A stretch of DNA of 63,622 nucleotides, filler included, from Streblomastix strix (Eukaryota): NCBI GenBank assembly GCA_008636045.1. It is 2 parts of 2 records of this genome, joined end to end, with 100 filler letters (N's around TTAATTAATTAA, not from the genome) between each part and the next. Parts side by side here need not be neighbours in the genome. Positions count along the whole stretch, not along the records: positions 31,890 to 63,622 come from SNRW01000078.1; 1 more part is not named here. The stretch is one strand, 5' to 3'. Positions within the stretch are counted from its first letter, which is position 1; each line of letters opens with the position of its first letter. The notes beneath the pieces are model-generated. The model searched no databases. It was not told the origin of the DNA and worked only from the letters and a program-made list of their open reading frames with translations. Of the stretch, positions 25,950 to 63,622 are shown one piece after another. A program made the position numbers and the translations under genes.

Positions 25950-26582
25950 TTAATATCTTTATCCATTTCTTCATACAACGCAGATTCCTTCTAACATTCG
26001 TTTGGAACATAAACTTATTCAATTATTTATTCTTTTTCAGTAATCTACTTAGGTTACCTATATCGTTTAACTTTTTATTTATATTTCTCCATTTGTTTAA
26101 CAGCACCATAATGTAATTTTTTAATAAATGAATTTTCAGTTCTCAACCAGATTAGTTCTTCCAAATCAAGTTCGGAATTAGTATAATAAATTTATGGATT
26201 TTTTGGTGTTTTTACTATTTTTTTTCTAACTTATTTCTTTAACGGTTTTTCGCTTACTTTGCTTATTGATATTTCATCTCTATCATTTTAATTTACATTG
26301 CTCCGATCTTCAATTACCTCTTATGATTCATAAGATATAAAATCTTCTTCATTATCAGCCTATTTTTAGGTTATTTTTTAATTATTTTCTTTGATTCCAA
26401 CCCTCCTCCAAGAGCTTTTAACAATAACTTATTCTATTATGTTTATGTTAATTTTTAAGTTTTTTCTTTCCTACTTCGAATACTATAATATCTTTATTAA
26501 TTTGGATTACTTTTCCATTGTCAAAATATTCAATATTTGTTCCATTGTCTTTCAAATTCTTTAAGGCGGGTTGTAAGTCCAT
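25950..26582 (-). pseudogene. Viral ORF A (charged, unknown), copy 1
   Basis: MDLQPALKNLKDNGTNIEYFDNGKVIQINKDI..; homologous to 48300-48942; frameshifted. Confidence 0.6.
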
Positions 26583-26605
26583 TTGAATATTTATAAATAA
26601 AGAAA

Positions 26606-27307
26606 ATGATAAGGGACATAGAAAGAAACAAAATTTACTTATCAAAATCCAAAAAATATAAGTCTGAAATTAAATTTAAAGAACTACCAGATGAAGATAA
26701 AATTAGGCTTTAATTGATTTATGATGCAATAAGCAGAATCAAGTCAATGCCAATAGTAGATGAAACGACAAGACCAAAAGAATAATATGATGTTATAAAT
26801 GAATCATATACAACCAGATCCCATAAGAAATATAGCATTAATAAATATTAAGAAGTTGATAGAACAACTGCTCAGATTGAACCAGAAGAAACAATAAATT
26901 AACTTGCAGAAGAATAACCAAAATTACAATATCTTTCTCATCTAAATTTAATAGTTTAAAAATTTGACATTGACACAATATTACGTACGATTACACATCG
27001 ATAGCGAGGTGACGATTTCATATTCTCATCAGATAACTTCATTAAATTTTGGTGCTTGATTACGTAGAATGATGAATAAGATGTAGAGATAGTATTGGAG
27101 GAAGCAATCATAAAGCCACATACATTTATGCCACGAAAGTATAAAAAAAGATTTGGTTAGAGTATAGGATATTTTAATCAAAATATATCAGTTAAAATAG
27201 TAGATAATGTTCTAAATAATTCTATTGAGAAACAATATTGAGTTAACTGTGATTTTATTCGAAAAAGTGATGTACGAGAAGTAGAGATTACAGATAATAA
27301 TTTTTGA
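26606..27307 (+). CDS. Viral ORF B (unknown), copy 1
   Basis: MIRDIERNK..YLSHLNL..RGDDFIFSSDNFIKFW..; TGA 27305-27307; homologous to 48965-49740. Confidence 0.65.
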
Positions 27308-27335
27308 TTATACTAATTTTATTTTTATCAAATAA

Positions 27336-27701
27336 ATGGCAGAGTAAAACAACTGGGAAATATTTAATGCAGATAATTACTTTGAAATGATTGCAAATGA
27401 ACCACATACTATAAGAAGAATAAAAGACGGATTTATTCCAAAAATCTCAAAGGATAAATCTTAAGGATATAACACTTCATATCTAAATTAATAGTAGCAT
27501 TTATATCATAGAATATTAGCAATTTAATTTTTACTTAATCTAAATAATTTATATAATATTGATCATAAAAATGGATTAAAATTTCGTAAATTCAAAAGAA
27601 ATTCTATAGGTAAATTATAAGTGTTTGTGAATGTTGTAGATATGGAATAGAAAAGAGTATAAATATCAATTAATAAACTAAGGAATGGAAATTATGAATG
27701 A
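27336..27701 (+). pseudogene. HNH homing-endonuclease-like gene, internally deleted
   Basis: EPHTIRRIKDG..GY..LN..HLYHRILAIQFLLNLNNLYNIDHKNG resembles the HRLVAxAFIPNPxNxPxVDHxN consensus of phage/NCLDV HNH endonucleases; the downstream DNxxxNL motif is absent. Confidence 0.7.
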
Positions 27702-27726
27702 ATAGCCTACTAATTTTGTAATAAAA

Positions 27727-28726
27727 ATGGAATAATAGCGTGAAATATCTCATGTCACTATGAGTAATTTAGATACGATTGATGAGAACGAATAGATTAA
27801 TTAATAAAAATAGGTAAATAAAAATAATATAATAATAAGTAGAGTAACAAAAATAAATTAAAGAATTTAATACATTATTATAATTTATTGATAATGAGAT
27901 AATAAAGTATTTTAATTATTTGAATTAATTCTTTAATAATTCTATCGATTTTATTAATTTATATTCTGACTAGATTATTCAAAGAATAAAGACATTTTTA
28001 TAACCTATAATAGCTGATAAAATTATTAGATAAGGTTGAACAAGTAACTAAATTCTATTAGCTAATGTAGATACTTCGAATTTAGATGATTTTCGACCAA
28101 AGGTAAGACGATATGCGTACGATGATTTTACTCTATAACCGAGTAATAAAGTTGATGACAAATTAGGTGGTATAAAAATAAGTAGAGGAGTTAATAAAGA
28201 AATAGAGAGTAATTTATATTTATGAATTAATGTCTATGATAGTATCTAAATAATCGATGGCCACACAGTGCTTATTCCTTATTTAGAATATAGTTAGGTG
28301 TTATCATCAAAATTAACTAGTACAACTACAGGATTTAAAAATGTTTAACCATTCTAAATTTAAAAAATGAAAAATGTTAATAATATAAATAAAGGAGTGT
28401 ATATCGATAAAGAAAAGGGTTCTTAGATTTATATAACTCCGGCATCGTTTATATTAATGCATATTTTCGTTGGACTTCATAACGGAGGTTCGACTAACAT
28501 TCATGTTATAATGGGAACCGTTGATGATGATTCTGTACTTAAATTTTTTGGGCTAATAATTATGTAGCATTTTATGACTTATTCAGCAAATATAAATTAA
28601 TATCTTGATTGTGCAATCAATTAGCAGGGATATTTTATTATAAATTCCAATTCTCTTATTAATTTACTATCACCATTAAACGTGGAAATTAATGGCACAT
28701 ATTTTTATAATTTTGGTGCAAGCTGA
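27727..28726 (+). pseudogene. Viral fibre-like protein 1, copy 1
   Basis: DQIIQRIKTFLQPIIADKIIRQG*TSNQILLAN (tail-fibre DQxIxGxKTF-like motif) followed by a copy-specific beta-rich domain; TGA 28724-28726. Confidence 0.55.
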
Positions 28727-28747
28727 TGATAATTTAAAAATAAACAA

Positions 28748-28880
28748 ATGGAAGGTTTTGAAGAGACAATCATTTACGCCCTAGATTAATTGAACATAAA
28801 CTGGCACACAATCTTTAATACTATTTGGGAAGCAGAAATCAAATACGTTGAGAATCAAAGATTTGCTGTCGAAAAATAAA
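28748..28880 (+). CDS. Small conserved viral ORF (unknown)
   Basis: MEGFEETIIYALDQLNINWHTIFNTIWEAEIKYVE; near-identical at ~51037-51170. Confidence 0.5.
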
Positions 28881-28917
28881 TTTACTTTTACTTCGGGAAG
28901 TTCGAACCTACGGTTCC

Positions 28918-30867
28918 TCACTGAGGTTTAATAGCTCCACCAGCAAGCTCACCAATAACATCAGCTTTTAGAACATATGGCATTGAACTGTCATTAAATA
29001 TGATCCTAACAAACGCATCACACAAGTAATGCGACATGGAGTAATAGATGCTTTAGTAGGATCAGGATATGCTCTAGTTCCAATGAATTATTTGAAATCA
29101 TTTTAGATCTATAATGGACTTACATTAGTTGTATCAATAATTCTTTTAGTCAAATTTTCATATAAAATCATTTATACATTAGTTCTTGACTTAATCTTTG
29201 AAGAGTTATATCCCCGCATAAATAAGTCATCAGTAGCCAATTTCCATGCAAACATATATTTGTTAGGATAAAGTGTTTTAATAGCTTTACTTCCACTATA
29301 CAATGATGTTAAATAGACTATATTAGCCATTTTGAATTAATTATTATTATCTATCAATCCATTGAAATTTTTCTTATCATCAATCTTCAAGTTCTTGAAT
29401 GTAAGAGAATGATATAGATCTGATAGAGCACTAACAACATCTTAATCAACAAAGCAGTCAAACATTTATCTATTAGTTGCACAATTTAATAATTTATATG
29501 GTTATGAGATAACATTATTCTAATCAATAACCAGATTGAGTCCCGTAAATAGTACAGGGAAAAACCATGTTGGATATTAGGGCATAGCAAATGTTATAAA
29601 TAGTACTTTTTATTAGAGAATTACATAATACTTTACATAGATCCACTTTCTTTATCAAATCCACTAAATGGAAAGTTCGACGATTATGCTCTAAATATTT
29701 GAGTAAGAACGTTTATTATTTTTTGTTATTGAATCAAACTAATTGTTGCTTCTTCATTTCCAATATTGAAGCTTACGTTCTAAATCTCCAATACATCAAA
29801 TTTAGCCGTTTCAATCTAGCTAATTGAATTTTGAGGTATTTTATCACCAACAGCCGCATTTTACATATTTACAATTCTTAACTTATATCTCTGTCATTCA
29901 AATCCATCCATATCATCACCTGCCAAAAGATTAACAATATCAGGTTTTTCAGGAGGAATCATATGACAAGCTAAATGATTTTTCATTATAGTATCATTTT
30001 TATTAAGTCAAACAACCTTCAAATCTTATAGGAAATCTTATATAAATAATTATATGTGTAATGTTGCATAGTTACGTTTAAATACAAGGAATGAATTAAA
30101 TTTAGTATTCAGGTAGTTAAAATCAAGTACTCCATTAAATGTAATATCAAAAGGAATTTTGTAATAGAATGGTGTTCCTGTAGTTTAAACAGTTGCTTGT
30201 CTGTCAATTTCACAACGTGATTTATCAATAAATACTCCACAATTACGTTTTCCTTCAATTATACTTTCTATTGGTGAAAAACTAAAGCTTTTTTTAGTGC
30301 ACAAATCACTAAGAGAATTACCACTAATTACTACGTATTCTCTTGCATAGATTGCAGATTCCCATAATTCTGTTGCATTTTTCATTAGTATGAATTGGTA
30401 GAATGGTCCACAAGCTGTTGAGAATCCGATCCAAAATTATAGATGTTCTGATGCTTCAATGCCTTAAGCTGTTTTACCATAATATCCTTATTACGCTTAT
30501 TACATATTTGTAGTCCAATAGGCTAATGGATCTTTTTTATGATTGAAATTAATTCAAGCTGTTAATTTGCTTTCAGTATCCCAATCATTATATGTTTCAT
30601 TTAATAATATCGCTAATGTATTTGCTGGTATAGTTATTCTCCAATTTACCTAACAAGTTTATACCATTGAACATGTTAATTTTCCTCGTGCTCCTAATGG
30701 CGCTCTGGTATATTTAACTCCACTAAATGTAAGTTAGGTAATAGGAGAATCGAAGAAATTTTGCTTTGATATTTCAAACGAATGAGGATGGATAGATAAC
30801 CACTAACGTAATCGGAATGTTGCATTTTTGCTAATCGTCTAAGATAATCACTGGATTTGAATGATAT
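28918..30867 (-). pseudogene. Putative major capsid protein (double jelly-roll), copy 1
   Basis: ~640-codon beta-rich ORF, strongly conserved between copies (EHLQFWIGFSTACGPFYQF, PTWFFPVLF, DVIGELAGGAIKPQ*). MCP identity inferred from size, conservation and linkage to the packaging ATPase. Frameshifts present. Confidence 0.6.
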
Positions 30868-30932
30868 TTCATTGAAACAAAAATTTACAAAATGGAACGG
30901 ATGTTTTTGTAAATAGTTTTATAATAAATCAA

Positions 30933-31141
30933 ATGGGTTTCATCTCTGGAATAGCAAATTTTGGATCAAAAAATGGTAGGTAGCGTTAAGAAAATTAGCA
31001 TAATGAGTTGCGTTAACATTACGTAAAGTTTAATTAAAAATATTAGGTCTTATTGGAATGATTCATCCGGGAATTTGAGGTGTATTTGGTGCAGGAGCCA
31101 ATCTTGCAGGTTCTATTGATAAATTAGTTAATAAACGCTGA
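30933..31141 (+). pseudogene. Small amphipathic protein resembling adenovirus protein VI, copy 1
   Basis: MGFISGIANFGSK..GAGANLAGSIDKLVNKR*; homopolymer frameshifts relative to copy 2. Confidence 0.55.
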
Positions 31142-31166
31142 TAATGACCAATTTATTTTTATAGAA

Positions 31167-31644
31167 AGGAACAACTCATTATCGTAACAATAAATCCATA
31201 CTGTTAGATAACTTATCACTAACTATATTGTCTACTATATTCAAAATTAGAAACGAGGTGGATCAAGTGTTGGAATGATGCCAAATGAAGAGTATCAATT
31301 ATTCATAGATAATAACAACGCATTAATCTTTGCAGCTAATAATTAAATCTTTGATGGAATGACATCAGATTACGTATTAAAATTAGAACCTAATGGATTG
31401 TTAGCAATGAAGAATTTGAAAGTGATTAATTTTGATTTAGTTGCTTAGATTAATTAGTTGATTAACTAAATGAATTTTTTATAACAATCAATTGGGACAA
31501 CTGAATAAGATATTTCTAATATAAAAAATTAAATTGATACCATTTATCAAGAATTATCACGATAAACACATTTCCGAGGATATTATTTATTGAATAGTGA
31601 CATATAAAATTTACCTAATTCCGCTAATGTAGATTTTTCATTTT
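31167..31644 (+). pseudogene. Viral fibre-like protein 2, N-terminal part, copy 1
   Basis: Homologous to 53487-53970 (QLFIDNNNAL..coiled coil..THFRGYYLLN); cut by an inverted chimera. Confidence 0.6.
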
Positions 31645-31789
31645 GTGGATTTGATAAAGAAAGTGGATCTATGTAAAGTATTATGTCATTCTCTAATAAA
31701 AAGTACTATTTATAACATTTGCTATGCCCTAATATCCAACATGGTTTTTCCCTGTACTATTTACGGGACTCAATCTGGTTATTGATTAG
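31645..31789 (-). repeat. Near-perfect inverted duplicate of 29520-29664 at the contig end (probable amplification chimera)
   Basis: Reverse complement matches the MCP segment ctaatcaataaccagattgagtccc..tttatcaaatccac. Confidence 0.85.
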
Positions 31790-31889
31790 NNNNNNNNNNN
31801 NNNNNNNNNNNNNNNNNNNNNNNNNNNNNNNNNTTAATTAATTAANNNNNNNNNNNNNNNNNNNNNNNNNNNNNNNNNNNNNNNNNNNN
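31790..31889. other. Artificial contig-joining spacer
   Basis: 44 N + TTAATTAATTAA (six-frame stop in the standard code) + 44 N = exactly 100 nt; the flanking contigs are of nearly equal length. Confidence 0.95.
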
Positions 31890-47232: not shown

Positions 47233-47849
47233 CTGAGATATATTAAAATAAAATTATTATATTAATAATTAAATAAATTTAGCAGTATACGTCATTTAAT
47301 AAAATATTAGCAAACCAATTTCTTATGTATTTTCAAATTAAATGTTTGATAATTTTTTGAGATTTGATGTTTATTCTTGATTATTTACGATATTATTATC
47401 TTATTTACTTTCATTAACCAATTATGAGGAATATTTGCTGCCGGATTAAATTTTTGTAACAATATTTAATTAATTCTATTAAACTTCATCTCTAAATTAT
47501 TCAAAAATGATTTTATTTTGAATTTTACATGGAAACTCCCTATTGTTCTGGTTTTCAATGAATTAATTTGAAGAATTTTCAGAAATTTATTATATATTTA
47601 CACTTTATTCAATTTATAAATATTAAGATGCTTCAATAGATCTGATTTCAGTGAGAATTTGAAATTCGTTTGGTTCTAACTAATTTTAACTAGGTTATTT
47701 TGAATTTTTATCTTAACTGAAGTTACTAGGTACGGACATTAATATTTTGATTAAGGAATAAAACAAACTTTTTGAAATAAGTGCAAAATAGATAAATAAA
47801 AAAAGGAAAAAAATAACTGAAAGATTAATTTAAATTGAAATCTTAAACT

Positions 47850-48259
47850 TCAGATTAAAATCAGAATACTTTCAAATCAGTTGTTGAAACAGCACCAATT
47901 TCTAAAGCCGAAGAAGACTTTCAGCTCCAATAAGCTATAATTCTTTCACTATAATCTACAGAAGTTTCCAAATGCATGCTGATCAACAGAGCGAAATGCA
48001 AACAGATATTGCTTATTGAATATACGAAGGCCTATTCCTATGGGTTAGCCTTCCCATAGTTGTGTCCGTATAAAGTTTAATAAACGAAATGTAAGAAAAT
48101 GGCTATTTTATCTCTGTTTGCATTTTGCATTGCTTCCGTAACAAAACTGTCAATTTAAATCATAAATTGATGGTTGTCCAATTATTCTTTTAATATATAA
48201 TACGTATTTGTCATTGCACTATAAATTCCTTCAATAGTTCTGATGTTATATTGATTCAT
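47850..48259 (-). pseudogene. Copy-specific viral ORF (unknown)
   Basis: MNQYNIRTIEGIYSAMTNTYYILKEQLDNHQF.. open for ~110 codons; no counterpart in copy 1. Confidence 0.4.
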
Positions 48260-48299
48260 TTTTTAATATAGGAACAAAAAAAATTGATCAATATATTTC

Positions 48300-48942
48300 A
48301 AAATTAATATCTTTATCCTATTCTTCAAACTATACAGATTCCTCTTAACATTCATGTGAAACTTAAACTTATTCAATTATTTATTCTTTTTCAATAGTCC
48401 ATTTGGGTTGCTTATATCGTTTAACTTTTTATTTAAATTTTTCTATTTGTTTAACAGCTTCTTATTGTTATTGTTTAATAAATGAATTTTCAGTTTTCAA
48501 CCTTATAAGTTCTTCAAAATCAAATTGAAGATTAATATAAATAATTTATGGAGTTTTTGATGTTTTTACTACTCTTTTTCTAACTTATTTCTTTAAAAGT
48601 TTTTCCCTTGCTTCGCTTATGGAATCATCACTCTCATTTTAATCATCTTACTGTTCATAAAATATAAAATTTTATTTATCTTCTTTTAGAAAGCCCGAAT
48701 CGCGGACATAATCAGTTTATTTTTATGTTTTTTTTTTAATTTTTTTCTTTGAATCAACTCCTCCTCTACGTGCTTATAACAATAACTTATTCTATTATGC
48801 TTAAATTAATTTTTTAAGTATCTTCTTTCTTTCTTCGAACACTTTAATATCTTTGTTAATTTGGATTACGGATCCTTTGTCAAATTATTCAATATTTGCT
48901 TCATTTTCTATTAAATTCTTTAATGCGTGTTGGAAGTCCTTT
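48300..48942 (-). pseudogene. Viral ORF A, copy 2
   Basis: DFQHALKNLIENEANIEQFDKGSVIQINKDI..ARRGGVDS; start ATG mutated relative to copy 1. Confidence 0.6.
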
Positions 48943-48964
48943 TGAATATTTTTAAATAAAGAAA

Positions 48965-49740
48965 ATGATAAATGGCATAGAAAGAAACTCAATTCGAATG
49001 TCAAAAACCAAAAAATAAATGACTGACATTAAACATAATGAACTTTCGGGTCAAGATAAAATAAGATTGCAATTGATAGATGATACAATAATTCGAATAA
49101 AATCAATGCCTGCCATTGACGAAACGACTAAGCCCGAGCAATCGTTGATTGGCCTCAAAAGAGAAGGTTCTAGCATAAATGCTAAACAATAAGAAAATGT
49201 AACATAAATTGAGAATGAAATTTTTCCAATAACGTCTGAATAATCTATCCTTACATAATAAAAAATTAGTAAGTATAAAAGCAAATATAATAATGATAAG
49301 TATAAACAAATTCATATAACAACTGCATAAGTAGACCCTGAGGAAGTAGTTAAAATACTTATCTTTCTCATCCAAATCTTGAAGTAATGAAATTCATTAT
49401 CGATCGAATAAGGGCAACAGTTACAACAAGAAAAAGAGGTGATGATTTTATACTTTCATCAGATAATTTTATTAAACTTTGGTCATTAATTATTTAAGAG
49501 AATGAAGATGATATAGATATTGTATTAGAAGAACCACTAATGAGATCTCATTCATGCATAGGCAAATCATATAAAAAGAAAGATCAAATAAGAGTAATGG
49601 ATGTATTAATTAAAAATGTTAACATATAAGTTATTGATAATATTCTTATTAATCCTGTTTAGAAACTATATCGAATAAATAAGGACATTGTTCGTTTATC
49701 TGATGCACCTACATCACAGACATCAAAAGATGATTTTTGA
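48965..49740 (+). pseudogene. Viral ORF B, copy 2
   Basis: MINGIERNS..KSMPAIDETTKPE..RGDDFILSSDNFIKLW..; TGA 49738-49740. Confidence 0.6.
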
Positions 49741-49795
49741 AATATTTATTTTAGCTGTCATTTTTTATATTTGATTATTATTATCGACAACAAAA

Positions 49796-50240
49796 ATGCT
49801 TACACAATTAGAAATAGTCAAAGATAAATTGTTTATTCATCCTCAAAATATACCAAAAGAAATATTCATTGATCCTATATATTAATATGATGATGATTTC
49901 TATTAACGAACATTAAATTAATATAGTAAACCTTACTGAAAGTTATTAAAATGATATGGAAATAACCCTAGCTGTCCATAATAAATTTATATAATAATTG
50001 AGAAGAGAAATATTTAGCATATTGATGATACAATTAATCAGTATACATAATAGATGAAAGAACTTAGTGATAGCATTTCTCATTATCCATTTCGTAACTT
50101 TATTGATGCAGAAGCAATTAATTATAGAGAATTGAAAGAAACGATTAATTTTATGTAATCAATCAAATTCAATCAATATGGCTAGTATGGTATTAAATGT
50201 CAGGTTAATAGTATAGATTATTATGTTGAAGAATGAATAT
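49796..50240 (+). pseudogene. Copy-specific viral ORF occupying the HNH slot
   Basis: MLTQLEIVKDKLFIHPQNIPKEIFIDP..; same position as 27336-27701 but unrelated sequence. Confidence 0.4.
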
Positions 50241-50260
50241 TGATTATTTTTGTAATAAAA

Positions 50261-51016
50261 ATGGATTAATAATTAAGCGATTTAGATATGATTGATGAAG
50301 ATGAATAAGTTAATTATTAAAAATAGGTAAGTAAAATAATATAATAATAAGAGTAATAAAAATAAATTAAAGAAAAAAATTTGTTATTATAAGTTATTGA
50401 TAATTAGATAATAAAGTATTGTAATTATTAGAGATAATTTTTTAGGAACTCTATCGATTTTGTTAATTTACATATTGACTAGATTATTCGTGGGGTTAAG
50501 ACATTTTTATAACCAATCATAGCTGAGAAAATTATTAAATAAGGTAGAATAAATAATTAAATTCTATTAGCAAATGGAGAATCTATTGATAAGGATAAGT
50601 TAGACTATGAACCTATTGAAAATGCATGTTATTCATCAATTGCTTAAGGAATGTATGAGTAACGAATATGGAATAATTTAACATCATAAAATAGTAGAGT
50701 ATATGTATCATTGTTAAAAGCTCACTCTGACTCTAATACTGTGTGCAATACAGGATATACTTTATTTTCAATCGTTGATAATGACATAAAACCAAAATTC
50801 ACTGAAACATCTTGTAATATATTTTTTAATGCTATTATATATGCGACTAAATAATCTAGTCAGCCAATAGTATGAATTAATGCAGTTGCAATTGATTGTT
50901 ATATTAATACTAATGGAAATGTTATAATAAATACAATGTATTAGCTAAGTTTACCTGATGATTTTTCTGTTTAGGTTTGTGATTCATATGCTATTCATAA
51001 TTAATCATCAAATTGA
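50261..51016 (+). pseudogene. Viral fibre-like protein 1, copy 2
   Basis: DFVNLHIDQIIRGVKTFLQPIIAEKIIKQGRINNQILLANGE, then a C-terminal domain unlike copy 1; TGA 51014-51016. Confidence 0.55.
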
Positions 51017-51215
51017 TTAATTTAAAAATAAACAAATTGACGGATTAAATGAAACACTCATTTATGCTCTTGACTAATTGAACATAAACTGGCACGCAAT
51101 CTTTAATACTATTTGGGATGCAACAATTAAATATATCTGCGAATCAAAAATATGTAGATGACAAATAAATTTATTTTTTAATAATTTTGTTATTAGAATC
51201 ATTGATTATGCATTT

Positions 51216-53191
51216 TCGTTGAGGTTTAATAGCTCCACCAGCAAGCTCTCCAATAATATCAATATTTAGTATTTATGGCATTTAACAGTCATCAAATATA
51301 ATTCTAACAAACAAATCTTACAAGTAATGTATCATTGGAGTAATAGATGCTTTAGTAAGGATCAGGATATGCTCTTGTTCCAATGAATTATTTGAAATCA
51401 TTTTAGTTCTATGATGGACTTATACTAGATATATCAATAATTCCTTTAGTCAAATTTTCTTAGATAATCATTTATATATTAGTTCTTGATCCTATCTTTG
51501 AAGAGTTATATAATCGCATAAATGAATCATCAGAAGCATTTTTTTCCACGTAAGCATATATTTGTTAGGATATAGTGTTCTAATAGCTTTACTTTCACTA
51601 TACAATTTAGTTGAATAGAATATGTTTACTATTTCATATTAATTGTTATTATCTATCCATCCATAGAAATGGGTATTATCATCAATATTAAAGTTCTCGA
51701 ATGTAAATGAATGATATAGATCTGATGGAGCACTAACACCATCTTAATCAACGAAATAATCAAACATTTTTCCATTAATTACTTAATTTAATGAATTAAA
51801 TGGTTATAGGAAAATATTTTTCAAATCAATAACTAGATTAAGTCCTGTGAATAATACAGGGAAAAAACCATGTTGGATATTATGGTACAATAAATGTCAT
51901 AAATAGTGAATTTATGTTTGAAAATGATATAATGCTTTACAATGATCCACTATCTTTATCAAAACCACTAAACATAAAGCTTGATGATTATGTTCTAAAT
52001 ACTTATGTAGGAAAATTAATTATTTTTTGTTATTGAATCAGACTAATTATAGCTTCTTCATTTTAAATATTGAAACATACGTTCTATATCTCCAATACAT
52101 CAAATTTGGCTGTACCAATCTAAAAAATTGAATTTTGAGGTATCTTATCACCAAAAGCCGCGTTTTACATATTTTCAATTCTTACATTATATCTAAGATA
52201 TTCAAGTCCAGTGGAATCTTCTCCTGATAGTAGATGGACAAAATCAGGTTTCTCAGAAGGAATCATTTGATAAGCTAAATGATTATTTAATATAGTATCA
52301 TTTTTGTTAAGCCAAACAACATTCAAATCTTATAGGAAATCTTATATCCATAATTATAGATGTAATGATGAATTAATACGTGTAAGAACAGGGAATGAAT
52401 TATATATATAGGATTTAGTTATTTAAGATCAAGTACTCCACTAAATGTAATATGTTTATCAATTTTATAATAGAAAGGTGTTGTAGCAGCTTATTTATCA
52501 ATTTCACTAAGTGGGATATCAATAAATACTCCACAATGATGTTTTCCTTCTAATATATTTTTTATTGGTGAATCACCAGCGCTATTTTTAGAGCACAAAT
52601 CACTAAGAGAATTCCCACTAATTACAGCTTATTTTCTTGCATAGATTGCAGATCCCCTTAGTGCTGTTACATCTTTCATTAGTTAAAATTAGTAGAATGG
52701 TCCGCATGCAGTTGAGAAACCAATCCAAAATTATAGATGTTCTGACTCTTCAATCCTTAATCAATTTTACTTTAATATCAAGATGATGTTTATGACATAT
52801 TTGTAGTCCAATCAGCTGTTGGATCTTCTTTACCATTGAAATTAGTACATGCAATTAATTTTCCTACAGAATCTCAGTCTTCAGATGTTTTATTTAATTA
52901 TATCGCTAATGTGTTTTCTGGTATAGTAATTGTCCAATTTACCTAACAAGTTTGAACCATTGAACAGGCCGATTTACCTCTTGCTCCTAATGGTGCTCTA
53001 GTATATTTATCTCCACTGGACGTAAGTTCAGTAAAAGGAGAAACGAAAAAATTTAGCTTTGATATTTCAAACGATTGAGGATGGATAGATAATGTTTTTA
53101 TAATTTCCCCAAGTTACATATATCCGTTAATGTAATTAGAATGTTTCATTTTTGCTAATCGTCCAAGATAATCACTAGATTAGAATGACAT
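51216..53191 (-). pseudogene. Putative major capsid protein, copy 2
   Basis: MSFQSSDYLGRLAKMKHSNYING..KYTRAPLGARG..EHLQFWIGFSTACGPFYQF..IIGELAGGAIKPQ; colinear with 28918-30867; stop mutated to CGA; internal TGA and frameshifts. Confidence 0.6.
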
Positions 53192-53256
53192 TTCATTGAA
53201 ACAAAAATTAATGAACTGAATAAATGTCTATATTAAAAGTTTTTATAATAAATCAA

Positions 53257-53460
53257 ATTGGTTTCTTTTCTGGAATTGCAAATTTTGGATCAAAAATATT
53301 AAGTGGCGTTAACAAAGTAGTTTAATGGGTTGCATCAGCATTACATAAAGTTTTGTCAACAATATTAGGTCCTGTTGGAATAATTTATCCTGCAATTAGA
53401 TATGCGTTAGGTGCAGGAGCTAATTTCGCTGGTGCTGTTGATCGACTTGTAAATAAACGT
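53257..53460 (+). CDS. Adenovirus protein-VI-like amphipathic (membrane-lytic/cement) protein, copy 2
   Basis: (M>I)GFFSGIANFGSKILSGVNKVVQWVASALHKVLSTILGPVGIIYPAIRYALGAGANFAGAVDRLVNKR. Confidence 0.55.
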
Positions 53461-53486
53461 AATTTATGTAATTTATTTTTGAAGAA

Positions 53487-55587
53487 ATGAACAGTTCATT
53501 ATCGTAACAATAAATCCGAACTGTTCGATTGCTCATTACTAACGATATAGCTTACTATATTCAATATTAGAAACGAGGTAATTCTAGTGATGGATTGATA
53601 TCAAATGAAAAGTTTCAATTATTCATTGATAATAACAATGCATTAGTCTACGCCGCTAATAATTAAATCATTGATGGAATAACATCAGATTACGAATTAA
53701 AAATAGAACGTAATGGACTATTAATTGTAAATAATTTGAAAGTGATTAATTTTAATTTTGTTTCATAAATTAATTAGTTGATTAATTAAGTGAATTTATT
53801 ATAATAATCTATTGCAACAACTGAATAGGATATAACCGATATAAAAAATGATATTGATTCCATTAATTAAGAATTATCAAAATAAACACATTTCCTAGGA
53901 TTTTATTTATTGAATACAGATATTTATAAATTTACCAAAATTCCGCTAATAGAGATTTTTCATTTAGTGCTGAAAGTGGGACAGTTTGGATGTATGATTA
54001 AAATTAGTATAATAGTGGATATATAGTTCCAGATCAAGTTTCGCCTGCAAGTGATGCAACTCCAATATCTGATGGTACAGCAACTGCAGGAATTAGCACA
54101 GAATATTCATGTGGAGATTATATGCATTTATTAAATATAGCTACTACTATTACGCCTAGTGATTCTGCCAATGGATCTGTTGGTACAACTAATTATTATG
54201 CTAGATCTGATCACTCTCATCCAATTAATATAACAACATCAATACCTCTTCAAGATAGTGCTAGTGGATCAATTGATACAACTAATTATTACTCTAGAAA
54301 CGATCACTTACATCCAATTAATGTAGAAACTAATGCTTCAAATATTCCAATCGTTAATGGTGTTGGATTTAATGGAAGATCAGCATTTTTACGCTAGAAA
54401 TGATCATGTTCATCCATAGTAATTAACATATGATGGAAACATTACAGAGACTAGATTTATTAAAACAGGAGTACAAATCAATAAATATTAATGACTGATG
54501 GAACAAATAAACAAATAACAGATTTTAATTCAAATATTGTATCAAAAAAGTACTAAATCAATCCTGATAATGGTATATATTAGTATTGTCTTGCTGTTTT
54601 GACAATACCTGATTATACATTTGATTAATCATTTTGATGTACTATTGATATTAATAATACTTTTTTTCATTAGTTATTTTATCAACTTAAGTGAAATCTT
54701 AGAATATTGCTAGAATTTAGAAGGTAATTTGAAGTTACTCAATTTGTTTCAATATATACAGATTTTATAATATGTGTTGATATATCTGAAACATCACATA
54801 TTTTGAGATTCTATATGAAATCATTTTAAATATCTTATTATATTCTTTAGAACATTAATTTATCATAATTCTCAGATGCAAATGTTCGTGATAATTTTAA
54901 ACTATTAGATAATATAAACTATTAAAATATAACTCCTGATACATTACCAACTGGTTCATAATTTGCAGTTACAGCCGAATAAAATCAATTCTTTAACAAA
55001 GGAGGAATAATTATTGGAGATGAATAAATTAATCCAATATGTAATAATTATAATTAAAGTATAAGAATATCACAGTCTCCTAATAGTGAATACAGTGGAA
55101 TTTTTCTGGGCTGTTGTTCAAATTTAACTACTGGACCATAAGAAGGTTTGTGGAGTATATTAACACCCCCAGTTGTGAATTAAAGATAGTGGTTAATGTA
55201 TAAAATGAACAGGCAAATTAAGGATCACTAATATCAGCAGATGGAAAAGCATTATCTTTCAATGGGAATATATTCATTGATTTTTGAACTGATTAAACAA
55301 TTACTGTTAGAAAAACGTTTAATAGTATATTTTAAATAAATCCAATTGATGATAATTTTAATTAAGGAATAAGAATATCGCGCGCTGCCGTTTATAATTA
55401 TAGTGGAATTTATCTTGATTGTAGTCCCATATCAACTGGTGGAACATTATCAAATTAGTTGAGCATAATAAATACACCTACTTTTGAATTTAGGATTGGA
55501 GTTGGTGAATAAATTGTTCAGGATAATAAAGGACTAATGATATCCGCTGATGGAAATATATTAACTTTCAATAGAAGAACACATTGA
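53487..55587 (+). pseudogene. Viral fibre-like protein 2 with phage tail-fibre HxH repeats
   Basis: N-terminal coiled coil; repeats YARSDHSHP, YSRNDHLHP, ARNDHVHP; TDQTITVRKTF; two C-terminal repeats (IRIS..YSGI.L.C..ISADG..L.FN); TGA 55585-55587; several frameshifts. Confidence 0.7.
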
Positions 55588-56727
55588 TAGTAATTTATTT
55601 TTGAAATAAAGGTAAAAAGCTATAACATAACCGATCAAACAATTGTTTAATGAATTCATCAAATTACACTTCGAAGACAATGATACAATTAAAGTTACAA
55701 TTGAAGCATTATAAAATTTTCTAAAGAAAGATGTAAAAGAATCAATCCATCCATACTCTAAGAATTACTGAGAATCAATAAAATGTTTACTAATCAATAG
55801 CAATAATTATAAAATATAAAGAAAATAGTTGATAAAGAGGATAATAAAAATAAGTTATTTAATGAATAAGATAAGTACTTCAAAACTAAATACTTATTAA
55901 TTAAAAAATCATTAGATCTAAACAATTAATCATAACAAATAAAGAAATACATTATCTCTGAAGCTAATGTAGAAGAAAATTGGATTTACTATTAATTTGT
56001 GAATGATAAATAATATAATAAATTTGTCAATTACTATTAACTTAATTTAAAACAATAAAATTGTTGATATATTAAACGTACCTAATTATCTCTTCAATTT
56101 TATCTTACATTGTTTCATCGAAAGTATAATGATTTTTGAATTATTCATACAATTATTTTTCCTCTATTGATAGATCATTTATTTCGATTAATGCTTCAAA
56201 TATTTTGAAAATCTCATAACAAGTCGCATAATACTATAAGCCAATGTTTGTAGCCAACTAATATATCTGTAAGATCAGGCAACTTTGTTGCTAAAGTTAT
56301 TCCATTTCATATGATTCAAACAATTTATTTTGTTGTTTAATTTAACATTTTAAGATACAAAATATATATCTCCAATGAGTTGCCAATTCCAAATCATTAT
56401 TTGATATTGCTTCGTTCGAAAATGTTTCAATTTATTCTACAGATAGCTATTATCAATGTATTCTTGGCTAATTTTTATCTATTTTCCTTTTGCAAAAGAA
56501 TTTTATTATATAAATCGTTATATTTAATGGAACCATTACTGAATCAAAATAACTCCATAAAATCTTTTCTACTTTAACTATATCCATTAATTTATTAGCA
56601 ATTGATATAGATATAATTGATGATAAAAAATAAACTCCATAGTACATGTAATTCATCAAGTTAATGATAAAACTTAAAATGTTGCAGCTTTGCTGCCGTA
56701 CGATAGTACACATTTATTATTTTTAAA

Positions 56728-57746
56728 ATGACTTTATAAGAATTATAGGATATAACATTTACGAACTAAGATCTATTGAATGAATATAAAACTAAGCCAT
56801 TAACGAAGAATTCATTGTTCTTTATTAATAGTAATCATTATATTGTTGCAGCTGTTGGAAGTGGTAAAACAACATTAATGTGTAAGCTAATTGTGATATA
56901 TAAAAAAGCAATTGATCCATTCATATTATACTTCTCGAATTATGATGCGAATGAAAATATGGCTTTAAACCTTAATATTAAGATCATATAATTAACTGAT
57001 GTAATTTTTGGAGAAGCAATGATATTTCAACCTGAATTTGATGAGATGAAATACATAACTAAGGAGATATACATTTGGTATAAATGAAAGAAGAAAAATA
57101 ATCCTATACTAGTGATTTCATTAAGCGAATGGAAGAATAAATATTATAAGCTAATGAGATTAAAAAGAATGAAGAACCTAATGATAATCTTAATTGAATT
57201 GTTGAACTATTCAAATAAAAAGTAATCGAAACCATTAATACATATAGTTAACCAATCAAGATATTGAGATTCGATATCCCTGCACTAGTACAAAATGTTA
57301 GTAACTAAAAGAAATACAAAATAGCGGATGATGATTAAAATGCTGATATAAAAATAATGAAAATACTTATATTAGAAAAAGTTTAATTACTCAATACATT
57401 AATGTTATTCGATGACAATGGATCTAATACAGATATCTAGCGAATTAGTTCATTACTATCTAAAACAATAACACATCTCATTAATGATTCTCGTCATTCA
57501 AAAAACACTATTTTCTTTATTGCATAACGTCCTATTTATTTGTTTAAGACAGCAAGGATATTAACCAATGTTAATTGCATAGGCGTTAATCTAGGAGAAA
57601 CTGATCTAAGATAAGTGTACGATGAAAATACGATATAAAATTTAGATTTTGATCAATTCCAATTATAAAAATATACTTTAAAGAAATATGAGTTTATCAT
57701 ATTGAATAAGTGGATGGGGAAATTTGAGATTCTCAAAAATAAATGA
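56728..57746 (+). pseudogene. A32/FtsK-HerA family DNA-packaging ATPase
   Basis: Walker A IVAAVGSGKTT, Walker B LMLFDD, Arg-finger DSRH, sensor TIFFIAQ (Q = TAA); internal TGA and frameshift. Confidence 0.88.
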
Positions 57747-57759
57747 AAGGAATCTTCAT

Positions 57760-60700
57760 TCAAATAAATAATCCTTAGCAGTTAATCCATACATAAATGG
57801 ACAGCATGACTGATTCGCTAGCTCGATCATTTTATCGTGAATTTCTGTGATTTCATTTTTTTCGATAGCTAATTAACTCATCTAATGATTCTTCTAGACC
57901 AATCTCATATTATAACATTTCACTATCATACATTCATTAGCACAATCGACTATCTAGTATTTAGTGATTTTATTAGTCATCTAATTAACTCCTCTTAATT
58001 TTATTTTTGAATCATCGCAAAAAATTCTAGAATTTAATATAATATTTAGGAGCTAATGCAATCAATGATGGACCTTGTCGTTCGATCGCTAATCCAAGGA
58101 TTTTCTTCTCATCATATATGTCTGATTTAATCGTTGGGAAGAAATATTTAGCATTATCGTTATAAAAATCTCGATCTTTAATTATAGCATTAAATTATTA
58201 AGTAAAATCTTCATTAGAATTTCCACTAATTGACCAATAAGCAGAATCAGTATCTCCTTCTATAAAATATATTCTATCCATATCTAAACATTTATACATG
58301 AAGTTATATATCAAATTTAGATACCAATATTTAGCATTATTAAATACAAAGAATGCAACTTATGAAGTAGTTTTACAACAGCAATGCTCTGGATTCATTT
58401 AAACAAGATAATTGTCTTCTGATATTTTTTGTTCGTCCATGAACGCATTAGATCTAATAGCTTTTTCTGTTTACTTTCTATTCATTATTTTAACTTTATG
58501 ATATTTCTCTGTATTCATTCCATCACTACCATATGAGCTATTCATAATTATCTTAAAGAATTATTCTTATCCTTTATTCTTATCTAATTTTGTTTCAATT
58601 CTGTTTTAGTAAATTCCTTAATAAATGAGTTGAATTAATCATGATTATTGAATAGCACTATCTATTTCACATCATCTATAATAAAATGACAATCATTAAT
58701 TAAGAACCATAAATAGTATGAACTAAATGCCAAATATTCTCCCATCGTTGATGATAAATTAGTTAGCTTTCTTTATTTTTGATCTGCTTTAATCGTATTG
58801 TCTTTCATGTGATTGAACATATATGATCCGAAAGTTCTTTCATCAGTTGTGAATTCATAATTTCTTAGAATAGCTAGGAAATTAATGAAATCGTTAACAA
58901 CATTGTTGCTGGAACCATAGGTGCTAAGGTAATTCTCTTAAATATTACCTTTGATTTCTGCAATGAATTATTGACCATCTTCTGTGAATCTCTTTTTAAT
59001 ATAAATTATTTGTTATTTTGTTTACTTTTAATGTACAGTTTCTCCTTCAATCTTACCAGTTTACGATACATACAAATACATTTTACCTCCTGTATACATA
59101 ATAAATTTATGAGGCTCTGATGACATAACACTATAATATAAGGAATTGAAATCAACATCAATTACATGAGTTATTCGATGATCAGTTGTTAAAACAGTTA
59201 TTTTCTTGGCTTCTCTGTTATAATATAATCGTTTTATAAAATCAATTCCTGATATATTAACTCTATGCATTACATTTGAAAATCCTCCTGTGATCCATTT
59301 TCTGATTAAATGATATACATCAATATCTGTAAGGTTAGTCGGTAAACATCTTATCATGCAATATTTACGTAATTATATGAACAATTTACCTATATTTTTA
59401 TCTTTATCCGAGCAGAAGCAATTGCAATATAAGCAGCAAGGTAAAACATTATCTTTTGAATGACCTATTGAATTATCGATTCTATCTAGTGTTGGTTTAA
59501 TGGCAAAAGTGAATTTACATCCGCAAATGCTGCAATTAGAATATATGAGTAATTGTTTGAAATATTCGAAATCCTTATTTTAAACGTTATTTGTTGTGTC
59601 TCTTCATTAATGTTTATCTTATAATTGATTTCCCCGTATTTTATTTTACCAATAGTTCTCTGTTAAGTAAAATTTCTATGAAAAATCTTCAAAATTTGAA
59701 TATACTCCATTAATGTCAAAATCCTCATAGGCTATAGCATATTTGATAGCGTTAGAGCATGCTACTATACTCATAAAACCAAACATATCAATCTTATATA
59801 TAAATTGTAAGCTAATTAATGTCATTAATGGTTTGATCATTATATATGTATCTTACTCATTATAGTATTGTAAATAGTTCCATGTATCTTTAAATCGTTT
59901 TGCATCTTTTAGATAAACTTAATAATCCTTCTAGCTAATTTTAGTATTCTTTAATGATGAGGTGAAATCTTCCATCGTAAATGGTTCTGATTTACTTAGT
60001 ACTTCATTAACGTTGTCAGTTTTGAAAGTTACATATGAAAATAGGCCTTTTTTTATCATCATATCCGTCACCAAAATTTTTTGCTGCTTACTTTAATTCC
60101 ATAGGTTATAGATACATTAACATGTCAAAAAATTTCACTTTCAAATTCAATTTCTTATGATGCACAATTATTTGTTTTGCTATTGTAGGGCTACCAATAT
60201 AATTACTGATTATCCAATCTTTGCATTACATATGTGATATGATTAATGATATATCAGATCTTGAGCTATTGAATCCAATTATTGGTACTTCTATTGAATA
60301 AGGAACTGTTTCATCAATTGTACAAGCTTCTGTGATATATTAGTTATCTGCATTAACTTACTCAGCTTCTTTAAACAATTAATGTAACCATCAAACTATA
60401 AAATCATCTCCATCCTATTAGTTAAAGAAAATTTTCTTAATTCATTATTTGTTACGAATAGTTGATGCAACTGATAAAGGAAGTAGTTCATACATTTAAT
60501 AGCTTGATTTACCGAACTATTTATTAACGATTTTAGGTATAGTTTTAAGTTCGCATGTGATGAAGTATTGTGAAGGTTTAAATTCATGTTATCTTCCATT
60601 TGCTAATGGATATTGATAAGTTTTATTCTGCATAATGTGTGGAACAAATAGCTTTTAGATATAATCTAGTTTAACTTTCTTAACTATTTTTCCTTCGTTA

Positions 60701-62433
60701 TTCTCACATTTTATAATGTGTTTCTCATTGTCTCTTGAATAATTTTTATCTTTAGGATCAAACACTTTTGAGTTACAATATGGTCAAAATTTTAATCCAG
60801 TTAATGCTTATTTATTTGCAATGGAAAAAGTATGTGATATCTTATTTCCTTCTCAAATCGATTCAATAACTAATATATCAATAGTTTTAATCTTAGCAGA
60901 GTTCAAACCATCGGTTTCTTAAAGCAAGGTTGTTTTGTTTTGTTAGTCAATTTGAGCAGAGCTCAGACCTATGGTTCCATCTTAATAGAATATCTACAGT
61001 CTCTTATAATAATTCTTATGTTCATTATCGTAATGGTAAATGTCTTAGTTAATTTTTAACTTTTATGAAACTATATTAGCGTATTTAGTTATGTCTAATC
61101 CATCAAATACTTTCAATAAATCAGTCTTTTTTTATTTTTTGAATCGAATTATAGCTTTAATACTTAAACTAAATATTCTCTACTAATGCTAATAATTGAT
61201 TCACTTTTATAGCGTTTCTCTTTGTTGTCAGAATGTAATACTTTAGCTCTTGTTTCCATATAACAATTGTTATTATATTCAATATTTTTATAAATAACAT
61301 TTTTACGATCATTACAACGAAAATCGATTAATTCTTTCATACTAGCTCCAACAATTTATGGCTAAAGATTAAATGTTTTAATCATCATTGGATAGATAGC
61401 TATGTATCGTAACCATGAACCATCTAGTGTATAATTCTAAATGTTTATTTTCTCAGATTTAATGTATTGTTCATATTCATCAATATCATCTTCAGATCAT
61501 ATAAGTTTTGGAACATGTTCTTGTATACGAGTCTCTCTAGGTAATATATCCATAATCAACATAAACGAAATCGTACTAATCATACTTATATTCCTCGTAA
61601 ATGACTTCAAAATTAAATTACATCTTGAATACTTAATGGTGTTATTCTTTATGAACTTTTTCAATAAACTACTCAAAATCTCTTACTGGATTAATAACAT
61701 TTTAGTAATGTAATAGGCTAAGTTATCCATTTGGCCCTGTTTATTCTATTGTGCGTTCACGGTCAAATCCTTATCTTGCACCATAAACTGTAGCAGTAAA
61801 TTATTCCATATTCTCGAGAAGAAAAAATAATAGTGTACCTGCATTAATATTTAATAATGTAAAATTTTTTCCTTTATATTTAATAATTCTATCTTTAATC
61901 TCTTTATTTTGTATGATAGTTATTTAATATTGTAGATTCACTTCATATTCTTCATCCATAATTCATTAAGCTTATTTTTGTTCTTTAATGATATAATCAG
62001 TCCAGAATTCATTAACTTATTGTTATTCTTATTCTCTACGATATTCACATAAATCTTATTCATATTAATTTGAATGATACTGAGTTAAATCTTTATGAAA
62101 TTATCTATTCAATTCTTATAAATCATCATAGTATATATCCGCTTATTGTTATAATTATTCTCTACGATATTCAAATAAATCATAATCATATTGATTCTAT
62201 TTGAAATGATTAACCAAATCTTTAGATTTGACAATTTACTGATTGTGTTTATACACTTATTTTAGATTTACTATTAAATCCCTATGGTTATTTCTTCCTC
62301 GTTTCTTATAATTAATTTTGTCTAAATATTCATTAGGTTAATTTTTAAGTTAATTTACATTTAATTAATCATTAATGGTTTTGTTATTGATTTTGAGTAG
62401 TTTGATTAGCTCTGCTTTCTTTAGATAAGACAT
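57760..62433 (-). pseudogene. Protein-primed family B DNA polymerase (pPolB), degenerate, with inserted HNH module
   Basis: ExoII IIGFNSSRSD (~60270), ExoIII YYNEQD (~59860), ITGG..DVDFNSLY (~59150), KIIMNSSYG (~58540), IEGDTDS (~58250), N-terminal NNNCYME (~61265); many frameshifts; 5' limit uncertain. Confidence 0.92.
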
Positions 62434-62467
62434 TTTGTTTAAAATAAAAATAATTTATTTAGACAGC

Positions 62468-63622
62468 TCATTAAAATTATATCCAGAAAAGTAAATTATT
62501 ATAAGAATCCATATATTGCATTGGTATATTTCGTCCAAAGTTATCATATAATGTAAAACTGATGATTTGCTCTATACTACAAGACATTACTGACTCATCA
62601 TATTCAATCCCCGTAATACTGGTGCATCAACCAAATTCTATTTGAAATTTATATTTGAGAATTCATTACCGCCTGTTACTTAAAGAGTTATTCTTTATAA
62701 TTAATTAGATACACAAATTATCAGCATTTATGAATACTCTAAAAAATTCCCGATATATGACAGAATATTAAAAGATCAACTTCTAAGCTTACATTATCAT
62801 TTTTAGTTTAATAAAACTATACTTTGAGATCAATTTATTTAATAGTTGATGACAAATTAACTAAGTAATTGGCTCCATTTTCGTTCTATCCATCATATAG
62901 ATCTTATCCACCAACTAACTATACGTATAGATTTGGAGATAAAAGTATACGATTAGCAAACCAATATACGTTATTTTAATAATAATTTTCGCTTATATCT
63001 TTAGGTACAAATTAGCTATAGTAATTAGTTCTTCCAACTGCTGTGTAAATGCTTTCATATTCTTTAATACAAAGTGCAGGTAATGAATTGATAATTCTAA
63101 CTGGAAATGTGTTAATGTTATTAATGATTTATTACATTGTTTATTGTTATACATTCACTGGTTATATGTCAGTTGTTGTAAATGTTCCATTAGGATTTAC
63201 ATCAACTTATTTACAAAATAAGTATCGTACTGATAATCCATGTCCTGTAAAATTCTTTGATTCTATAGTTGTTATGTGGTTATTTGATATTGGGCAATAT
63301 AATCGTATTAATCCAATCACTCGATATGCAAAATTAACTGCTGTATCAAATATTCTATAATTGCAGAGAAACGCTTCGATTCTAAGGTTAATGTAATTGA
63401 TTGTTGAATTTATTAAATCTTACCCATAATTCTAGTTTAATGAGAACATATTATTCTATAATTTTTAAACATGTTCGTTAGTTGCATTATTAAAACATAT
63501 CGCTCCACTATTCAAAGTTGATTATGTCCTAAAATATTTCTCAATTGTATCTGTAAAATTATCATATTATGTCAGTGTTAAGAATAGTAATTATGGATAA
63601 GATTTAATAAAATCAACAATCA
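62468..63622 (-). pseudogene. Putative minor capsid (penton) protein, 5' end outside window
   Basis: Beta-rich ORF ending EY..IEQIISFTLYDNFGRNIPMQ, resembling the C-terminal IxIxLxDxxGRxI motif of Polinton/virophage pentons; TGA 62470-62468. Confidence 0.55.

What the first reader, a model, noticed from the sequence alone, without database searches (positions are those of the whole stretch)
47640..63622. Endogenous Polinton/adintovirus-like virus with replication and morphogenesis genes in a TAR=Gln protist
Seen: an intronless cluster of pPolB (DFNSLY, KIIMNSSYG, GDTDS), a Walker A/B ATPase with RH and Q motifs, a ~650-codon conserved beta-rich ORF, a penton-like ORF, fibre genes and several orphans. 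Established: pPolB + A32 ATPase + DJR capsid + penton defines Polintons and related Preplasmiviricota. Inference: a divergent family that standard-code ORF calling mostly misses (the ORF track shows only fragments).
Basis: partly seen in the sequence, partly recalled or inferred. Interest (0 to 1): 0.9.

Follow-up and report, generated by a model that had tools for sequence, protein, structure and literature searches.

The report
Decayed Polinton with divergent capsid lineage
This is a broken, truncated copy of a repeated virus-like element in a gut protist that reads TAA/TAG as glutamine; an intact sister copy's capsid is predicted to have the double jelly-roll fold, and it is likely a second, unplaced capsid lineage within a group of endogenous viruses already reported from this host.

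Summary
Largely confirmed, but less new than claimed. Under table 6 the region holds a protein-primed DNA polymerase (with an HNH insert), an A32-type ATPase, a capsid gene, fibre-like genes and orphans. All are broken: the '650-codon ORF' is six pieces. A second, ~80% identical partial copy lies at 25918-31647. All close homologs are labelled Streblomastix strix. An intact sibling of the capsid folds confidently (pLDDT 76.5), and its top 15 structural matches are all double jelly-roll capsid-type proteins (best Z 17.9). The polymerase is 47% identical to a Trichomonas vaginalis polymerase. Bellas et al. 2023 already reported 820 capsid genes of TAR=Gln endogenous viruses in S. strix. What seems new: this capsid family looks distinct from theirs, has 21-31% identical relatives on metagenomic contigs of up to 22 kb, and sits next to a small amphipathic gene whose position is kept in distant relatives. 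Penton, integrase, protease and terminal repeats were not established; the contig ends inside the element. Verdict: new variant of a known kind, interest 0.4.

The parts
47920..63622 (.). Element copy 2, decayed, cut off on the right by the end of the window; left edge approximate (47.9-48.3 kb)
   Evidence: Depth 10-17 in the flank, 314 in the edge bin, 4,900-37,000 in 25 of the 26 following bins; unique contig ends at 47914; homology with copy 1 starts at 48273
47921..48262 (-). Orphan ORF (~110 aa) at the edge; membership uncertain
   Evidence: no family; lies left of the copy-1 homology
48291..48990 (-). Lys/Glu-rich orphan, broken; shared with copy 1
48960..49740 (+). Conserved orphan, one frame change; homologous to copy 1 and to the N-part of P0262
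50261..50875 (+). Orphan conserved in siblings (62-75% to parts of P0250, P0262); possibly structural, function not shown
51216..53191 (-). Major capsid protein pseudogene (double jelly-roll by the fold of an intact sibling); six pieces
   Evidence: map; fold of P0075
53257..53460 (+). Small basic amphipathic-helix gene (67 codons, no ATG in this copy), head-to-head with the capsid gene, 65 bp apart
53466..55587 (+). Fibre-like gene, broken: coiled coil, four HxH-type repeats, repeated beta-rich C-terminal units
   Evidence: internal repeat 55025-55263/55333-55572
55600..56650 (.). One or two broken orphans
   Evidence: no family above cut-off
56728..57746 (+). A32-type packaging ATPase pseudogene, 1 frame change and 1 stop
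57759..62430 (-). Protein-primed family B polymerase pseudogene: putative vOTU Cys motif, exonuclease, HNH/EndoVII insert, Pol motifs. Homology mapped to 62079; start near 62430 is inferred
62721..63449 (-).
25918..31647 (.). Element copy 1: partial, ~80% identical, same gene order (orphans, capsid, small gene, start of fibre); ends at a scaffold gap

Best explanation
This is a decayed, truncated insertion of a repeated Maverick/Polinton-type endogenous DNA virus in a host that is likely Streblomastix strix, whose polymerase is close to Trichomonas-type polymerases and whose predicted double jelly-roll capsid likely belongs to a separate, divergent lineage. Shown: gene content, order, breakage, a second copy, over a hundred siblings, and the predicted fold of an intact sibling. 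Inferred from known Polintons: an active ancestor would copy a linear genome by protein priming (TP-vOTU-exonuclease-HNH-polymerase), pump it with the A32 ATPase into an icosahedral capsid with fibres, and integrate repeatedly into host chromosomes. Inferred more weakly: the small amphipathic protein would be a virion protein that disrupts membranes on entry, as adenovirus protein VI does; integration would use a retroviral-type integrase lying beyond the contig end or supplied in trans. Because its genes use TAA/TAG as Gln, it would be expressed properly only in hosts with that code. This copy cannot make any core protein.
For: Capsid: model of P0075 on 66 sequences, pLDDT 76.5, pTM 0.84; Foldseek top PDB hits EhV-201, PBCV-1, SGIV, mavirus, Sputnik capsids, E 3e-12 to 2e-10; ranks 1-15 of 48,161 chains are all DJR capsid-type proteins, best Z 17.9, rmsd 4.3 A, 353 residues aligned. 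The window pieces are 44-66% identical to sibling P0055. Polymerase: Pfam hit; T. vaginalis P0129 47% over 96% of the query; Pol A/B and HNH residues invariant in 57 of 57 rows; endonuclease VII/HNH PHROGs E 7e-11 in a more distant S. strix polymerase. ATPase: Pox_A32. Synteny in other copies: consecutive locus tags and equal contig lengths for pPolB+ATPase (030325/030326; 025681/025682) and near-consecutive for ATPase+capsid (006653/006655). Endogenous: intron-broken eukaryotic genes flank it and a host-depth contig runs to 47914. Past selection then decay: capsid dN/dS 0.44-0.49 between the two window copies; window polymerase branch 0.17 against 0.04-0.07 for its four nearest siblings.
Against: No integrase, protease or penton was recognised in 25 + 123 window segments, and no terminal repeat was found, so three hallmark Polinton genes are unshown. 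The fold was obtained on a sibling about 55% identical, not on the broken window gene; a first model on siblings only was poor (pLDDT 42) and matched nothing. Sequence identity to every solved capsid is 10% or less and TM-scores are only 0.3-0.4 by query. The tree has no outgroup, so it cannot place the polymerase among other Polintons. The small gene has no Pfam or PDB hit. Distinctness from the published S. strix capsid cluster is indirect.
Confidence: 0.8

Rival explanations
1. The family is simply part of the 820 capsid genes already counted in S. strix by Bellas et al. 2023, so nothing here is new.
For: That paper reports S. strix elements using this code, 820 capsid hits in one cluster, 10.8% of the genome. 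UniRef names 6 of 119 siblings 'Major capsid protein'. The supplement is cut and its S. strix hit rows could not be seen. 61 of 211 profile hits were not listed to me.
Against: The four S. strix capsid tags seen in the supplement (010462, 022745, 002970, 017327; hits reaching residue 550-553, one 562 aa long; ~32% to T. vaginalis, first 30 of 791 places) are not among the 119 hits. None of six full-length tags of this family occurs in the stored supplement (the one string match is inside a number). P0075 has no BLASTP match to L014, which resembles the published type by eye only (E 1.9).
Confidence: 0.3
2. The stops and frameshifts are artefacts of assembling short reads from a high-copy repeat, and the insertion is really intact.
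For: PMC10120064 section 7 documents such artefacts. Fold-back ends at 31635-31789 and 63589-63622 show assembly or amplification chimeras. Intact siblings exist.
Against: A low-depth contig (depth 13) matches 51504-51727 with no difference and bridges the frame change at 51543; five more low-depth contigs inside the element match exactly. Both window copies are broken at different places and differ by 20%. The run may be the sample the window came from, so this is not independent.
Confidence: 0.08
3. The family is a capsid-bearing element that depends on a helper: it has no integrase or protease of its own and uses those of a co-resident Polinton family, or of a larger virus.
For: No retroviral-type integrase or Ulp1-type protease in about 15.7 kb of the window copy or in 73 ORFs from related loci. 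In L009 host-type genes (Sec1, HMG box, TFIIF-beta) lie directly before the polymerase.
Against: Every locus seen is partial; Pfam also misses the capsid and most full-length polymerases of this group, so absence is weak. Related capsids sit on contigs of 20-22 kb whose other genes I could not read.
Confidence: 0.2
4. It is a capsid-less linear plasmid or self-synthesising transposon.
For: First fold attempt gave no capsid match; no sequence-level hit in Pfam or PDB.
Against: The better model is a clear double jelly-roll, and a packaging ATPase is present.
Confidence: 0.02

Closest known systems
Metamonada-group endogenous viruses of Streblomastix strix and Trichomonas vaginalis Maverick-Polintons (Bellas et al. 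2023, PMC10120064)
   Same: Same host label, same TAR=Gln code, high copy number, polymerase 47% identical to a T. vaginalis one, highly divergent capsid that only structure prediction confirms. A 2026 preprint (10.64898/2026.06.19.733378) leaves this group unplaced.
   Different: The capsid here is 630-690 aa and does not retrieve the named S. strix capsids; only a weak profile match (E 0.0014, probability 17%, 372 columns) links it to capsids next to related polymerases.
pPolB2-class Polintons with an HNH insert (nematodes, oomycetes; 10.1101/2023.08.22.554363)
   Same: That paper places Metamonada polymerases in pPolB2 and describes an HNH insert in pPolB2; an HNH/EndoVII-type insert is invariant in all 57 polymerases aligned here.
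   Different: The passages read call the insert unique to oomycete and terrestrial nematode elements; whether the insert here is the same event was not tested.
Polintoviricetes as defined in 10.1101/2024.03.18.585575
   Same: pPolB with conserved Cys and His upstream of the exonuclease (vOTU position), packaging ATPase, DJR capsid.
   Different: Integrase, Ulp1 protease, penton and terminal repeats not seen in this truncated copy.
Adintoviruses (PMC8502044)
   Same: pPolB, ATPase, DJR capsid, and small predicted membrane-active genes in the virion module (their cupiennin-like and pX-like genes).
   Different: Defined as animal-tropic with virion genes restricted to animals; this is a protist element with no sequence-level capsid match.

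Membership tests
Maverick-Polintons (Polintoviricetes) | [quoted passage not shown] | tested here: met
   Pfam PF03175 above cut-off in the window and siblings; motifs
Maverick-Polintons (Polintoviricetes) | TP-vOTU domains in front of the exonuclease | tested here: inconclusive
   Cys in 40 of 40 and His in 52 of 53 non-gap rows at the expected position; assignment to vOTU is by motif and position, no fold run; the His motif pattern was not found in the window frames
Maverick-Polintons (Polintoviricetes) | [quoted passage not shown] | tested here: met
   Predicted model of intact sibling P0075
Maverick-Polintons (Polintoviricetes) | A32/FtsK-type packaging ATPase | tested here: met
   Pox_A32 above cut-off in siblings, the best of them 82-85% identical to the window gene
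Maverick-Polintons (Polintoviricetes) | Single jelly-roll minor capsid (penton) | tested here: inconclusive
Maverick-Polintons (Polintoviricetes) | Retroviral-type integrase | tested here: inconclusive
   No hit in 25 + 123 segments; element cut by the window end
Maverick-Polintons (Polintoviricetes) | Ulp1-family maturation protease | tested here: inconclusive
   No hit; genes broken and element truncated
Maverick-Polintons (Polintoviricetes) | Terminal inverted repeats and target-site duplication | not testable with these tools
   Right end missing, no genome held; none among the 25 longest inverted repeats
Metamonada capsid group of Bellas et al. 2023 | Capsid within their 25%-identity cluster (T. 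vaginalis DUF4106 type) | tested here: inconclusive
   Their sequences could not be used as queries. Named tags absent from 119 hits; no DUF4106 hit in 65 members, but none in the related-locus capsids either; weak profile link to the latter
Metamonada capsid group of Bellas et al. 2023 | Metamonad host, host genetic code used by the element | tested here: met
   119 of 119 capsid and 26 of 26 ATPase hits labelled S. strix; TAR=Gln
Adintoviruses | Animal host | tested here: not met
   Embedded among TAR=Gln protist genes; siblings labelled S. strix
Virophages (Maveriviricetes) | Virophage-type capsid | tested here: inconclusive
   Virophage capsids rank first in BFVD but below giant-virus capsids in PDB (Z 13.7-13.8 against 17.9); identity 10% or less

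The most novel reading that the evidence does not exclude
S. strix carries a second, so far unrecognised lineage of double jelly-roll virus whose capsid family extends to 20-22 kb metagenomic contigs, which pairs a Trichomonas-type HNH polymerase with its own morphogenesis module and a conserved capsid-linked, protein-VI-like membrane-lytic peptide; it would define a family of metamonad viruses, possibly without its own integrase or protease, locked to a TAR=Gln host.
Probability: 0.3. Interest if true: 0.62.

Novelty: new variant of a known kind. Interest (0 to 1): 0.4.

Why it matters
Metamonad Polintons are an acknowledged unplaced group for want of related genomes (10.64898/2026.06.19.733378). 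A further capsid lineage with distant relatives gives material to place them and shows capsid and polymerase modules assorting separately. If it lies outside the published count, the viral share of the S. strix genome is above the 10.8% estimated. A small amphipathic gene kept beside the capsid gene in distant lineages offers a testable entry mechanism for viruses never seen as particles. The locus itself is a dead copy.

Tried and rejected
First capsid model on 65 siblings: pLDDT 42, no match with Z of 5 or more; superseded. Profile searches of the capsid against PDB sequences and Pfam: nothing significant. Capsid relatives in viral contigs and metagenome contigs: none; back-translated patterns may miss TAR codons. 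Seven viral-contig and four metagenome hits of the polymerase scan matched only a short stretch around the HNH insert and were set aside. Capsid plus small peptide complex: no verdict. No RNA holder listed. No capsid of the L014 type in 1,249 window segments. Profile comparison with siblings only was not significant (E 0.29; 0.032). Earlier findings: none returned. Polymerase tree dropped 19 of 118 sequences for under 85% coverage and has no outgroup; no donor or order of events is claimed. The copy-1 boundary stays open. The notebook's habitat label for loci L008-L033 rests on no call and is withdrawn. Literature: 9 searches; only PMC10120064 joined Streblomastix with Polinton; subscription papers and bioRxiv supplements were not seen.
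Full report
Observation. Under table 6 the region 47.9-63.6 kb is a gene cluster, but every core gene is broken. One window segment hits Pfam DNA_pol_B_2 above cut-off. The supposed 650-codon ORF maps to an intact sibling in six blocks, 44-66% identical, with five frame changes and a TGA. The polymerase spans 57759 to at least 62079 with at least five frame changes and six stops; the ATPase spans 56728-57746 with one of each. A second partial copy, about 80% identical and in the same order, lies at 25918-31647 and ends at a scaffold gap. TAA/TAG read as Gln is supported independently of the host's annotation: 52 of 311 residues opposite these codons in 8 standard-code relatives are Q, background 2.9%.

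Host and abundance. No genome is held. All 119 capsid hits and all 26 ATPase hits are labelled Streblomastix strix, so the host is likely this oxymonad. Contigs of run X1 give depth 10-17 left of 47.8 kb and 4,900-37,000 in 25 of the 26 bins right of 48352 (one bin at 54); the tool warns that this is no copy number, but the step marks the edge of a repeat, and a unique contig ends at 47914. Locus tags and contig lengths show polymerase beside ATPase in two other copies and ATPase near capsid in one.

Capsid. A model from 65 close siblings was poor and matched nothing. A profile search of 1.84 billion representatives found 211 hits, 150 listed, among them nine long proteins only 21-31% identical to the siblings, from Logan, ENA, JGI and NCBI records on contigs up to 21.8 kb. 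With these added (66 rows) P0075 folded at pLDDT 76.5, pTM 0.84. Foldseek returned EhV-201, PBCV-1, SGIV, mavirus and Sputnik capsids at E 3e-12 to 2e-10 and virophage, adomavirus and adintovirus capsids in BFVD. VIA-align ranked DJR capsid-type proteins 1-15 of 48,161 chains, best Z 17.9, rmsd 4.3 A over 353 residues, next unrelated row 6.5. The fold is therefore DJR, on a sibling, with no clear nearest family (identity 10% or less).

Polymerase and ATPase. The nearest named non-Streblomastix polymerase is T. vaginalis P0129, 47% over 96% of the query; many unnamed metagenomic proteins are 35-49% identical. In 57 aligned sequences the Pol A and B residues and a Cys-rich HNH-type insert are invariant, and a Cys (40 of 40) and His (52 of 53) upstream fit the vOTU position described in 10.1101/2024.03.18.585575. 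A FastTree tree of 100 core sequences (19 of 118 dropped, midpoint root, no outgroup) puts all 29 S. strix sequences and the window in one clade (support 0.88), the window on a longer branch than its siblings. ATPase siblings hit Pox_A32 above cut-off (3 of 8 scanned).

At 53257-53460, head-to-head with the capsid gene, lies a 67-codon basic, amphipathic ORF, also in copy 1 and in siblings. Loci fetched by polymerase similarity carry a small ORF with a similar N-terminal pattern next to a putative capsid gene: head-to-head in L008, L014, L020, L023, in line in L033; L019 ends before the capsid. All 8 peptides tested have a helical hydrophobic moment above shuffles (p 0.0005-0.006). L008-L023 are near-identical, so this is about three lineages. 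Their capsid call rests on a weak link: sole hit among 540 ORFs at E 0.004 and profile-profile E 0.0014, probability 17%, 372 collinear columns. Likeness to adenovirus protein VI is recalled, not shown; Pfam and PDB gave no hit. Adintoviruses carry small predicted membrane-active genes in their virion module (PMC8502044).

What is missing. No integrase, protease or penton was recognised in 25 + 123 window segments or 73 ORFs of related loci. Pfam also misses this capsid and most of these polymerases, and the element is cut by the window end, so these tests are inconclusive. No terminal repeat was found.

Decay. Capsid dN/dS between the two window copies is 0.44-0.49, as expected from selection in active ancestors followed by neutral decay. 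Assembly error is a documented rival (PMC10120064 section 7), but a depth-13 contig matches exactly across the frame change at 51543; the run may not be independent of the window.

Mechanism. Shown: content, order, breakage, repetition, predicted capsid fold. Inferred from Polinton biology: protein-primed replication, ATPase packaging into an icosahedral particle with fibres, repeated integration. Weakly inferred: membrane entry by the small peptide, and an integrase beyond the contig end or in trans.

Prior knowledge. PMC10120064 (abstract, passages, sections 5 and 7, searches of a supplement cut in storage) reports S. strix endogenous viruses using this code, 820 capsid hits in one cluster related to T. 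vaginalis. The four S. strix tags I saw there are not among my hits, and six of my full-length tags are not in the stored file, but the S. strix hit rows were not visible. UniRef names 6 of 119 siblings as major capsid proteins. A 2026 preprint (two passages) leaves Metamonada elements ungrouped. 10.1101/2023.08.22.554363 (passages) puts Metamonada polymerases in pPolB2 and treats the HNH insert as special to oomycete and nematode elements. Also read as passages only: 10.1101/2020.01.28.923185, 10.64898/2026.10.13.758929, PMC12220804, 10.1101/2025.04.19.649669, PMC6048507; none of the passages describes this family.

Verdict. A real but dead copy of a known kind of element in a host where such elements are already reported. 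The likely new part is a separate capsid lineage with distant relatives and a conserved capsid-linked amphipathic gene. New variant of a known kind; interest 0.4.

Noticed in passing
window:25918-31647: Second partial copy of the element, ~80% identical, capsid broken at other places; it has a stretch near 27.3-27.7 kb resembling an HNH-bearing sibling protein (P0115) and an ORF at 28226-28726 not shared with copy 2.
   Followed up: partly
window:31635-31789 and 63589-63622: Short fold-back inverted copies at a scaffold gap and at the window end, likely amplification or assembly chimeras; they lengthen the ORF at 62721-63620 falsely.
   Followed up: partly
window:59534-59430 (minus strand): HNH/EndoVII-type insert in the polymerase, invariant in 57 of 57 metamonad-type and metagenomic sequences, although a preprint treats such an insert as special to oomycete and nematode Polintons.
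   Followed up: partly
window:8913-9385 and 10751-11215: Direct repeat of ~470 bp, 87% identical, in an AT-rich stretch; not examined.
   Followed up: no
window:41217-44856 and 31770-34421: Host genes with introns by appearance: a kinesin and an adaptin-like gene (names by eye, not searched).
   Followed up: no
L009:343-4317: Intronless eukaryotic genes (HMG box, Sec1, TFIIF-beta) lie directly before a related polymerase, with little room for a terminal region or integrase.
   Followed up: partly
L014:2335-11491: Related element with an apparently intact standard-code capsid candidate (about 540 aa), interrupted by IS1595-like and Tc3-like transposase genes.
   Followed up: partly
L028-L036: Nine contigs filed in prokaryotic genome bins carry this eukaryotic-type polymerase, two (L033, L034) with capsid candidates; likely mis-binned protist or viral DNA.
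   Followed up: partly
L017:1849-5370: A related polymerase fragment at a contig end near an ephrin-receptor exon; chimera, contamination or transfer not examined.
   Followed up: no
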